Source: Escherichia coli (lineage in GTDB: Bacteria; Pseudomonadota; Gammaproteobacteria; Enterobacterales; Enterobacteriaceae). Taken from it: a DNA stretch of 660 nt. This document shows positions 78-447 of this stretch, piece after piece (the first letter of the stretch is position 1; each line of letters begins with the position of its first letter). The position numbers were made by a program, and so were the translations under genes. The notes below the pieces were generated by a model. The model was not told the DNA's origin. It saw only the letters and a program-made list of their open reading frames with translations, and made no database searches. The stretch lies in NCBI RefSeq assembly GCF_003334355.1, contig NZ_QOWP01000104.1; one strand, written 5' to 3'.

Positions 78-433
78 AGTAAAATGAATAATGATCCGTA
101 CCGTACAACTGCGGATAATGTGATAAGCGGGACGACTTCAGACGTTATTAGGGAAGGAACAGAAAATGCTATGGTTATGTGAGAATTTTGTTTAAATATT
201 ACTTTACAGAAACGGGTGTCTGTTCAGTCAAAAAAATAATCACAAGCTCAACCTCTTGTTTCTTGGCGTTATTCAGGACAGGTACGCATATCACAACGAG
301 TAACAAAAACGTAAAGTTAAACCAATATTCATAATATATTTTTATTCACAGCAATAAATAATCCAATTAACATTATTAAAATGAATGATTGCATAAGAAA
401 TATATGCTACCGCTCCACCCTGATAACATGATC

Positions 434-447
434 TGCACATTGCACAT
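434..447. repeat. Tandem direct repeat of heptamer TGCACAT (x2), immediately 3' of a GATC site (430-433)
   Basis: TGCACAT at 434-440 and again at 441-447 with no spacer; GATC at 430-433. Sequence-level observation only. Confidence 0.5.

What the first reader, a model, noticed from the sequence alone, without database searches (positions are those of the whole stretch)
430..447. Tandem TGCACAT heptamer adjacent to a Dam GATC site
GATC (430-433) is followed directly by TGCACAT-TGCACAT (434-447). Exact tandem heptamers are uncommon in 600 bp (my rough chance estimate is about 0.1). Direct repeats of this kind can be binding sites for response regulators or iteron-like proteins, and a neighbouring GATC could make binding methylation-sensitive. 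A two-copy heptamer could also be a slipped-strand duplication able to vary in copy number.
Basis: seen in the sequence. Interest (0 to 1): 0.35.

Follow-up and report, generated by a model that had tools for sequence, protein, structure and literature searches.

The report
Slippage-prone heptamer repeat upstream of vgrG
The doubled TGCACAT is a real but ordinary short tandem repeat in the silent control region of an E. coli toxin-delivery (type VI secretion vgrG-Rhs) gene island; it occasionally expands by replication slippage, and the more interesting feature is a conserved 33-base core next to it.

Summary
In detail: GATC (430-433) is followed by TGCACAT twice (434-447). An exact tandem heptamer arises in 5.5% of shuffled windows, so it is not remarkable alone. 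The window is the E. coli intergenic region upstream of the orphan type VI secretion gene vgrG (the 'vgrG-2'/Rhs island beside cusS), cut at 587 by an IS1 end. Among 5,426 complete E. coli genomes, 2,585 carry two copies, 12 three, 5 four, 2 five and none one. Expansions arose at least three times and vary (3/4/5) within one pig ETEC clone, which is typical slipped-strand behaviour at low frequency (0.7%). Paralogous upstream regions carry TGCACATTGC-CAT. More diverged homologues have AGC-AAT or CGC-TAT in place of copy 2, and one class has AATC instead of GATC. So neither the second heptamer nor the Dam site is a conserved requirement. What is conserved is a 33-nt, relatively GC-rich core (406-438) ending inside copy 1, plus a distal block (491-520). 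Both sit in AT-rich DNA whose K-12 counterpart binds H-NS, upstream of different T6SS cargo operons. This is probably the island's promoter/operator. The paired-binding-site and Dam-switch readings are not supported; copy-number variation is confirmed but rare.

The parts
1..66 (-). 5' end of the orphan type VI secretion gene vgrG; the start codon ATG is at 66-64 on the minus strand
   Evidence: RefSeq annotation of matching genomes; sequence read on the minus strand
67..398 (-). AT-rich upstream/leader region of vgrG (17-20% GC over 301-400). It is homologous at about 81% to the region upstream of the paralogous vgrE/rhsE locus, but unrelated in allele class 3
399..426 (-). Candidate sigma-70 promoter A on the vgrG strand: -35 TTATCA (426-421), 16-nt spacer, -10 TATATT (404-399). 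It would place the heptamers at about -42 to -55
   Evidence: Consensus scan, 9/12, but the total number of sites equals the shuffle expectation. Both hexamers are conserved in four allele families while two spacer bases change; the -10 is absent in class 3. No experimental start site was found
406..438 (.). Deeply conserved 33-nt core GCTACCGCyCyACCCTGATAwCwTrATCTGCAC, a relatively GC-rich patch in AT-rich DNA. It ends inside heptamer copy 1
   Evidence: Identity to the window is 32/33 in the 81% paralogues, 29/33 in class 3 (flanking leader about 50%) and 31/33 in wlxctx60, where both flanks are unrelated. GC is 0.45 against 0.15-0.25 in the flanks
430..433 (.). GATC (Dam target). Conserved in four allele families and in wlxctx60; AATC in class 3
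434..440 (.). Heptamer copy 1 (TGCACAT, nearest vgrG). Its first 5 nt belong to the conserved core. On the vgrG strand it reads ATGTGCA
441..447 (.). Heptamer copy 2 (TGCACAT), the unit that varies. Paralogues have TGC-CAT, class 3 has AGC-AAT, wlxctx60 has CGC-TAT. The array expands to 3-5 copies in 19 genomes
446..473 (-). Candidate sigma-70 promoter B on the vgrG strand: -35 TTGAGC (473-468), 16-nt spacer, -10 TAAGAT (451-446, overlapping the last two bases of copy 2). It would place the start site inside the heptamers
   Evidence: My own positional scan: 7-9/12 at homologous positions in all six sequences (TATGAT in wlxctx60). The match is weak and there is no experimental support
448..460 (.). 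Conserved CTTAACGTTGTTA just distal to the repeat, containing the small inverted repeat TTAAC-N3-GTTAA
   Evidence: 12/13 in the paralogues and 10/13 in class 3; the inverted repeat is read directly from the sequence
491..520 (.). Distal conserved block, containing the perfect inverted repeat ATTTATCAA-N6-TTGATAAAT (496-504 / 511-519)
   Evidence: Identity 27-30/30 in the paralogues and 26/30 in class 3, while 461-490 is only 14/30 in class 3. Inverted repeat; its arms are not fully kept in the ync paralogue or class 3
587..660 (.). End of an IS1 element inserted after ...TATATG. Strains without the IS continue ATAGATGGCTTG... toward the 3' end of cusS

Best explanation
The doubled TGCACAT is an incidental short tandem repeat, not a purpose-built pair of binding sites. 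It lies at the distal edge of a conserved 33-nt core in the AT-rich upstream region of the E. coli orphan vgrG-Rhs island, known as the 'vgrG-2 locus', between nfrB and cusS. Shown: the perfect two-copy form is specific to this allele family and differs from the paralogous TGCACATTGCCAT by one base. Inferred: because the two copies are identical and adjacent, replication slippage occasionally adds units, giving 3-5 copies. Once three or more copies exist, the tract keeps changing within a clone. Shown: only copy 1 overlaps the deeply conserved core; copy 2 and the GATC are dispensable in more distant homologues. Inferred: the core together with the distal block (491-520) is the promoter/operator module that drives these normally silent T6SS cargo operons. 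Extra heptamers add 7-21 bp either between the core and the distal block or at the start of the transcript, depending on which candidate promoter is real. The effect on expression is probably small or neutral.
For: Copy-number census in 5,426 complete genomes: 1 copy 0, 2 copies 2,585, 3 copies 12, 4 copies 5, 5 copies 2, none longer. The imperfect 13-nt form is in 3,464 genomes. In 120 metagenome loci, 61 are perfect 2x and 59 imperfect, with nothing else. Independent origins: the 4- and 5-copy ETEC strains have identical 1.4-kb flanks and the 3-copy ETEC strain differs at 2 positions; PSJ-14 (3x) and 24AR0357 (3x) sit on different backgrounds, the latter 2 differences from 2-copy strain D5 (cusS protein alleles). 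Seventeen of the 19 expanded genomes are pig isolates. Copy 2 and the GATC are not conserved, whereas core 406-438 is 29-32/33 conserved against roughly 50% in class 3's leader. A core-only copy has unrelated flanks. The module precedes different cargo genes; in class 3 there are two small ORFs, one weakly matching a T6SS immunity lipoprotein family, followed by vgr. Two positionally conserved promoter candidates lie on the vgrG strand. A sigma-70 holoenzyme SELEX peak flagged as H-NS-bound lies in the K-12 paralogous yncH>rhsE spacer (PMC3946193). The locus is silent in 10 of 11 conditions (PMC4048457).
Against: No transcription start site, binding or expression data exist for this region, so the promoter/operator role of the core is inference. 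The promoter consensus scan finds no more sites than shuffles do. Candidate A loses its -10 in class 3, and candidate B scores only 7-9/12. Only five or six distinct allele families exist and there is no outgroup outside E. coli. A 29-nt identical run at 80% background identity has a rough chance of about 0.1 by my own estimate, so the conservation statistics are modest. The complete absence of 1-copy alleles despite at least three expansions hints that the two-copy spacing may matter, which argues against 'purely incidental'. That is a small sample: P is roughly 0.06-0.13 if gain and loss were equally likely (my estimate).
Confidence: 0.6

Rival explanations
1. The repeat is a tunable promoter-spacing element, that is, a weak contingency locus. 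Heptamer copy number sets the distance or helical phase between the core promoter and the distal block (7 bp is about 240 degrees, 21 bp about two turns), or sets the 5' leader length. This would modulate vgrG-Rhs expression between lineages.
For: Copy number changes recurrently and within one clone (3/4/5 copies with identical flanks). The tract lies between two conserved blocks and next to or inside both promoter candidates. No contraction to one copy is seen, which is compatible with a spacing constraint.
Against: Only 0.7% of genomes deviate from two copies, and 17 of 19 come from pigs, mostly one lineage. The paralogous and deeper homologues function, if they function at all, with an imperfect, non-slippable sequence. 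One expanded strain has a degenerate vgrG pseudogene. There are no expression data.
Confidence: 0.12
2. The two heptamers form a bipartite direct-repeat operator for a transcription factor.
For: They are perfect adjacent repeats immediately distal to a conserved core and near promoter candidates. The region 421-450 is 97% identical to the 81% paralogues.
Against: Copy 2 is not conserved: there is a 1-nt deletion in 3,464 genomes, and AGC-AAT or CGC-TAT in deeper homologues. The 7-bp periodicity puts the copies on different helix faces, unlike OmpR/PhoB direct repeats or NarL 7-2-7 sites (established knowledge). No recalled consensus matches there. Alleles with 3-5 copies are tolerated.
Confidence: 0.08
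3. The GATC next to the repeat is part of a Dam-methylation-sensitive switch, like the Fur/Dam control of the EAEC sci1 T6SS cluster.
For: There is a precedent for Dam/Fur epigenetic control of an E. coli T6SS promoter (PMC3145626). The GATC lies inside the conserved core and is kept in four allele families plus wlxctx60.
Against: It is a single GATC, with the next one 337 bp away. Class 3 has AATC while keeping the rest of the core. The best Fur-box match is 12/19 and lies elsewhere (542-560), and no OxyR or Lrp box overlaps the GATC. No report of an unmethylated GATC here was found.
Confidence: 0.06
4. Nothing here is functional. The core and distal block are conserved only because these Rhs-element upstream regions diverged recently or exchange by recombination, and the repeat is neutral junk.
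For: There are few independent allele families and no outgroup. The locus is transcriptionally silent. The region tolerates IS1 insertions at 459/460, 586/587 and 595/596. There is no RNA structure signal and no Rfam hit.
Against: The core stays 88-94% identical where the adjacent sequence has fallen to alignment noise (about 50%), and it occurs with unrelated flanks in wlxctx60. It is always oriented upstream of island genes transcribed away from it.
Confidence: 0.12
5. The heptamers supply start codons (ATGTGCA on the vgrG strand) for a short upstream ORF or leader peptide that runs through the core.
For: A frame through the core is open in all families, with an ATG just before CR(S/L)(C/R)YQG(G/R)AVA(Y/F). 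The two substitutions between the window and the paralogue in this stretch are synonymous (my reading).
Against: Predicted products range from 15 aa to at least 32 aa with unrelated C-termini. Class 3 and wlxctx60 carry non-synonymous changes. There is no convincing Shine-Dalgarno sequence (my reading of the sequence). A 7-nt expansion changes the frame of upstream ATGs without apparent consequence.
Confidence: 0.02

Closest known systems
Short VNTR / simple-sequence repeats generated by slipped-strand mispairing (the kind used in E. coli MLVA typing)
   Same: Identical adjacent units, copy number differing by whole units, recurrent independent changes, and faster change once the tract is longer (3/4/5 copies within one clone).
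   Different: Only two copies in 99.3% of carriers, a very low polymorphism level, and no description in the literature I could search. That it is absent from published MLVA schemes is from memory only.
Promoter-associated repeat tracts of contingency loci (for example Neisseria meningitidis nadA TAAA tract upstream of the promoter, Haemophilus hif TA repeats between -35 and -10); recalled from established literature, not tested here
   Same: A repeat tract sits next to or within a promoter candidate, where adding units changes spacing between control elements.
   Different: Those tracts are long (often more than 8 units), hypervariable within populations, and have demonstrated expression effects. 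Here the tract is two units, 0.7% of carriers vary, and no expression effect is known.
Fur/Dam epigenetic switch of the EAEC sci1 T6SS promoter (PMC3145626)
   Same: An E. coli T6SS-related promoter region containing a GATC.
   Different: In sci1 the GATC overlaps a defined Fur box and methylation and binding are mutually exclusive. Here no Fur-like box overlaps the GATC, and the GATC is replaced in one homologous class.
H-NS-silenced horizontally acquired islands with AT-rich upstream regions (for example the K-12 yncH>rhsE spacer, flagged as binding sigma-70 holoenzyme and H-NS, PMC3946193)
   Same: 15-25% GC flanks, a silent locus, and paralogy to the K-12 spacer with the SELEX peak.
   Different: H-NS binding was not measured for this allele. 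The promoter proposed in that paper (TTGACT-17-TATTAC) maps to a spot disrupted by an 11-nt indel in the window allele.

Membership tests
Slipped-strand tandem repeat (VNTR/SSR) | Two or more identical head-to-tail units | tested here: met
   TGCACAT x2 at 434-447
Slipped-strand tandem repeat (VNTR/SSR) | Copy number differs between related genomes by whole units, with otherwise identical flanks | tested here: met
   2, 3, 4 and 5 copies. The 4x and 5x strains have 0 differences in 1.4-kb flanks
Contingency locus (phase-variable SSR) | High-frequency, population-wide copy-number variability | tested here: not met
   19 of 2,604 carriers (0.7%) deviate from two copies, and none among 61 perfect-repeat metagenome loci. 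Within-culture switching rates are not testable here
Contingency locus (phase-variable SSR) | Copy number changes expression of the adjacent gene | not testable with these tools
   No expression data. The position relative to two promoter candidates is known
Response-regulator direct-repeat site (OmpR/PhoB type) | Two half-sites spaced about 10-11 bp centre to centre | tested here: not met
   Spacing is 7 bp. The 10-11 bp requirement is established knowledge
Response-regulator direct-repeat site (OmpR/PhoB type) | Both half-sites conserved in homologous promoters | tested here: not met
   Copy 2 is TGC-CAT, AGC-AAT or CGC-TAT in homologues
Iterons | Several 17-22 bp repeats next to a replication initiator gene or origin | tested here: not met
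   The unit is 7 nt, there are two copies, and the chromosomal context is vgrG/cusS with no rep gene
Dam-dependent epigenetic switch (pap / agn43 / sci1 type) | GATC site(s) lying inside the binding site of Lrp, OxyR or Fur at the promoter | tested here: not met
   No Fur or OxyR match overlaps 430-433. The best Lrp-like match (13/15) is at 395-409 in AT-rich sequence, not on the GATC. The consensus strings were recalled from memory, so this is a weak test
Dam-dependent epigenetic switch (pap / agn43 / sci1 type) | GATC conserved wherever the regulatory module is conserved | tested here: not met
   Class 3 (13P477T, EC9) has AATC within an otherwise conserved core
Dam-dependent epigenetic switch (pap / agn43 / sci1 type) | Stable under-methylation of the GATC in vivo | not testable with these tools
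   No methylome data accessible; the literature search found nothing for this site
Sigma-70 promoter | -35 and -10 hexamers with 16-18 nt spacing, conserved in homologues, and a mapped start site | tested here: inconclusive
   Candidate A scores 9/12 and is conserved in 4 families but not class 3. Candidate B scores 7-9/12 in all six. The number of sites equals the shuffle expectation. No TSS data were retrievable
Structured RNA / known RNA family | Match to an Rfam model, or a fold more stable than shuffles | tested here: not met
   Best Rfam hit is 24 bits against a gathering score of 170. Fold z-scores are -0.8 and -1.2. No tRNA

The most novel reading that the evidence does not exclude
The 33-nt core (406-438) with its adjoining heptamer tract and distal block is the so-far unidentified operator/promoter shared by E. 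coli orphan vgr-Rhs islands, recognised by an unknown regulator. Heptamer copy number, or methylation of the embedded GATC, would then tune or diversify expression of T6SS toxins between lineages.
Probability: 0.1. Interest if true: 0.55.

Novelty: new member of a known kind. Interest (0 to 1): 0.22.

Why it matters
The repeat itself matters little. It is a low-variability tandem repeat that could at most serve as a lineage marker for pig ETEC/O139 strains. The useful by-product is a discrete, conserved 33-nt core plus a distal block upstream of several different orphan T6SS cargo operons in E. coli. Recent papers state that the signals and factors controlling these orphan vgrG islands are unknown, and that even promoter replacement did not yield VgrG1 or RhsF protein (PMC13141884). 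The core gives those studies a concrete sequence to mutate or to use as bait.

Tried and rejected
- **Tandem Repeats Finder:** reports nothing, because the repeat is too short.
- **Rfam, permissive threshold:** only sub-threshold noise.
- **ARAGORN:** no tRNA or fragment.
- **RNA folding of 380-520, both strands:** not better than shuffles, so an RNA element was rejected.
- **Terminal repeat of the island:** no second copy of the core, direct or inverted, with up to 9 mismatches in the 21-kb island region. Rejected.
- **Outgroup search:** the 22-mer core is absent from 100,044 GTDB species representatives. None of 79 vgrG-relative loci from other genera has a homologous upstream region. The ancestral repeat state therefore cannot be polarised.
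- **Regulator consensus boxes recalled from memory** (Fur, CRP, FNR, IHF, NsrR, sigma-54, OxyR, Lrp, PhoB, ArcA, NarL, RcsB, LexA, Fis, MetJ, CpxR, PhoP, OmpR, SlyA, CusR): none lands convincingly on 430-447. This is a weak negative.
- **Experimental start sites:** the Thomason dRNA-seq paper is not held, and the Cappable-seq supplements contain no rows for the K-12 paralogue coordinates.
- **Shimada's proposed rhsE promoter:** located in K-12 but disrupted by an indel in the window allele, so it is not the conserved element.
- **Literature search for the 14-mer:** found only an unrelated primer.
- **'Hypothetical protein' annotated under the region in one genome:** it is a vgrG remnant.
- **Pfam and NCBIfam on the class-3 176-aa ORF:** no match.

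Full report
**1. Observation**

It is the only exact tandem repeat with a 6-12 nt unit in the window. In 5,000 dinucleotide-preserving shuffles, 5.5% contain an exact tandem heptamer. A heptamer pair with a GATC within 7 nt occurs in 0.3% of shuffles, but that conjunction was defined after seeing it. The window has two GATC sites against about 2.6 expected. From this sequence alone the feature is therefore unremarkable, and its reality had to be judged by comparison with other genomes.

**2. Where it is**

The window is E. coli chromosome.
- Bases 1-66 are the 5' end of an orphan type VI secretion gene, vgrG, on the minus strand.
- vgrG is followed by a DcrB-like (Eag-type) chaperone gene, a large rhs toxin gene and orphan rhs fragments. 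Together they form an island of about 13 kb between nfrB and cusS.
- EHEC papers call this the vgrG-2 orphan locus, Z0700-Z0707 (PMC12981562 and PMC5363993).
- Bases 587-660 are the end of an IS1. Strains without the IS continue toward cusS.
- The repeat lies about 370 bp upstream of the vgrG start codon, in DNA that is 15-25% GC apart from a relatively GC-rich patch at about 401-440.

**3. Copy number across E. coli**

I used synthetic queries with 14-nt flanks and n copies against 5,426 complete genomes.

| Copies of TGCACAT | Genomes |
|---|---|
| 1 | 0 |
| 2 | 2,585 |
| 3 | 12 |
| 4 | 5 |
| 5 | 2 |
| 6 or more | 0 |

- Seventeen of the 19 expanded genomes are pig isolates (ETEC / O139:H1).
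- ETEC1748 (5 copies) and ETEC4067 (4 copies) have identical 1.4-kb flanks, and ETEC4068 (3 copies) differs at 2 positions.
- The human isolates PSJ-14 and 24AR0357 (3 copies each) sit on different backgrounds. 24AR0357 is 2 differences from the 2-copy strain D5 (cusS alleles).
- So there were at least three independent expansions, and change continues once the tract is longer. This is classic slipped-strand behaviour at a low rate.
- A variable-gap pattern scan of metagenomes, capped at 120 loci, found 61 perfect two-copy alleles, 59 imperfect 13-nt alleles and nothing else.

**4. Is the pair of heptamers conserved?**

No.
- The paralogous upstream region at the yncH-vgrE/rhsE locus, and a diverged allele at the cus locus (about 81% identity), carry TGCACATTGC-CAT. 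That form is in 3,464 genomes with no length variants detected.
- A sensitive search found a third class (about 74% identity) at the ansP locus, upstream of two small ORFs and a vgr gene. It also found a core-only copy in strain wlxctx60.
- In these, copy 2 is AGC-AAT or CGC-TAT. In class 3 the GATC is AATC.

**5. What is conserved**

- A 33-nt core, GCTACCGCyCyACCCTGATAwCwTrATCTGCAC (406-438), ends inside copy 1. Identity to the window is 32/33 in the paralogues, 29/33 in class 3 and 31/33 in wlxctx60.
- In class 3 the adjacent leader (340-399) is at alignment-noise level, about 50%. In wlxctx60 both flanks are unrelated.
- A short CTTAACGT stretch just distal to the repeat is also conserved.
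- A distal block (491-520) is 26-30/30 identical to the window in the allele families that retain it; in wlxctx60 this region is unrelated (8/30).
- The module always lies upstream of island genes transcribed away from it. In class 3, one of those genes weakly matches a T6SS immunity lipoprotein family.

**6. What the core is not**

- It has no partner at the other end of the island.
- It is not tRNA-derived.
- It matches no Rfam family.
- It does not fold better than shuffled sequence on either strand.
- It is absent outside E. coli: the 22-mer is missing from GTDB species representatives, and 79 vgrG loci of other genera have unrelated upstream DNA.

**7. Likely role (inference)**

Two weak sigma-70-type candidates on the vgrG strand are positionally conserved.
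- TTATCA-16-TATATT has its -10 at 404-399. It scores 9/12 in four families but is lost in class 3. It would put the heptamers at about -42 to -55.
- TTGAGC-16-TAAGAT has its -10 at 451-446, overlapping copy 2. It scores 7-9/12 in all six sequences. It would put the start site inside the heptamers.
- The consensus scan finds no more sites than in shuffles, and I could retrieve no experimental start sites.

Independent hints come from the literature.
- A sigma-70 holoenzyme genomic-SELEX peak, flagged as H-NS-bound, lies in the K-12 paralogous yncH>rhsE spacer (PMC3946193). The specific promoter proposed there is disrupted by an indel in this allele.
- The locus is silent in 10 of 11 conditions (PMC4048457).
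- The regulation of vgrG1 is explicitly described as unknown (PMC13141884).

I therefore read the core plus distal block as the island's promoter/operator module, with about 40% confidence in that sub-claim. I read the heptamer pair as an incidental, slippage-prone sequence at its edge.

**8.

- Copy-number variation by slippage is confirmed but rare.
- The direct-repeat binding-site idea fails on conservation of copy 2 and on spacing. None of the consensus boxes I recalled matches.
- The Dam idea has a real precedent in the EAEC sci1 T6SS cluster (PMC3145626). Here, though, there is a single GATC with no overlapping Fur, OxyR or Lrp-like box, and the GATC is replaced in class 3. Its methylation status is untestable with these tools.
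The lack of contractions, set against at least three expansions, is a weak hint that shortening the spacing is disfavoured.

**9. Verdict**

This is a genuine, previously undescribed but ordinary short tandem repeat, a new member of a known kind. Interest is low for the repeat. It is modestly higher for the adjoining conserved core, as a lead into the unknown regulation of orphan vgrG-Rhs islands.

Noticed in passing
window 586/587; L001 about 6595 (equivalent to window 595/596); L008 3459/3460 (equivalent to window 459/460): Three independent IS1 insertion points lie within about 140 bp of this upstream region. The window's own junction comes after ...TATATG. A common lineage's junction is 9 bp further on. 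Strain 203740 has IS1 only 12 bp from the heptamers, with a 9-bp target duplication AACGTTGTT. No complete genome in the collection reproduces the window's exact junction in one piece.
   Followed up: partly
window 406-438: A 33-nt relatively GC-rich core is conserved at 88-97% across all allele families, including a copy in strain wlxctx60 (L215 3001-3037) whose flanks on both sides are unrelated. It is undescribed as far as I could search, and is a candidate shared control element of orphan vgr islands.
   Followed up: partly
window 440-342, minus strand: On the vgrG strand each heptamer reads ATGTGCA. The proximal ATG opens a frame through the core that is open in every allele family (MCRSCYQGGAVAY...). 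The products range from 15 aa to at least 32 aa and have unrelated C-termini, so this is probably not a real protein. A possible upstream ORF remains untested.
   Followed up: partly
window 491-520: A distal conserved block contains a perfect inverted repeat, ATTTATCAA-N6-TTGATAAAT (496-504 / 511-519). It is 26/30 conserved in class 3, while the 30 nt between it and the core are not conserved. The arms are not fully kept in the ync paralogue.
   Followed up: partly
L007 3178-3206 (K-12 yncH>rhsE spacer); aligns to window about 300-322: The rhsE promoter proposed from genomic SELEX (TTGACT-17-TATTAC, PMC3946193) is not conserved in the cus-locus allele, where an 11-nt indel removes most of its spacer.
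   Followed up: yes
L213 / L214 (ansP locus, strains 13P477T and EC9): A third orphan T6SS island type has the same upstream module followed by a 176-aa ORF with no Pfam or NCBIfam match, a 118-aa ORF with a sub-threshold match to a putative T6SS immunity lipoprotein family, and a vgr gene. It replaces yncG-yncH next to ansP.
   Followed up: partly
L003 1-2998 (strain K_EC180): In this 4-copy strain vgrG (tssI) and the downstream toxin gene are both annotated as truncated pseudogenes that abut each other, so the island is degenerate there.
   Followed up: no
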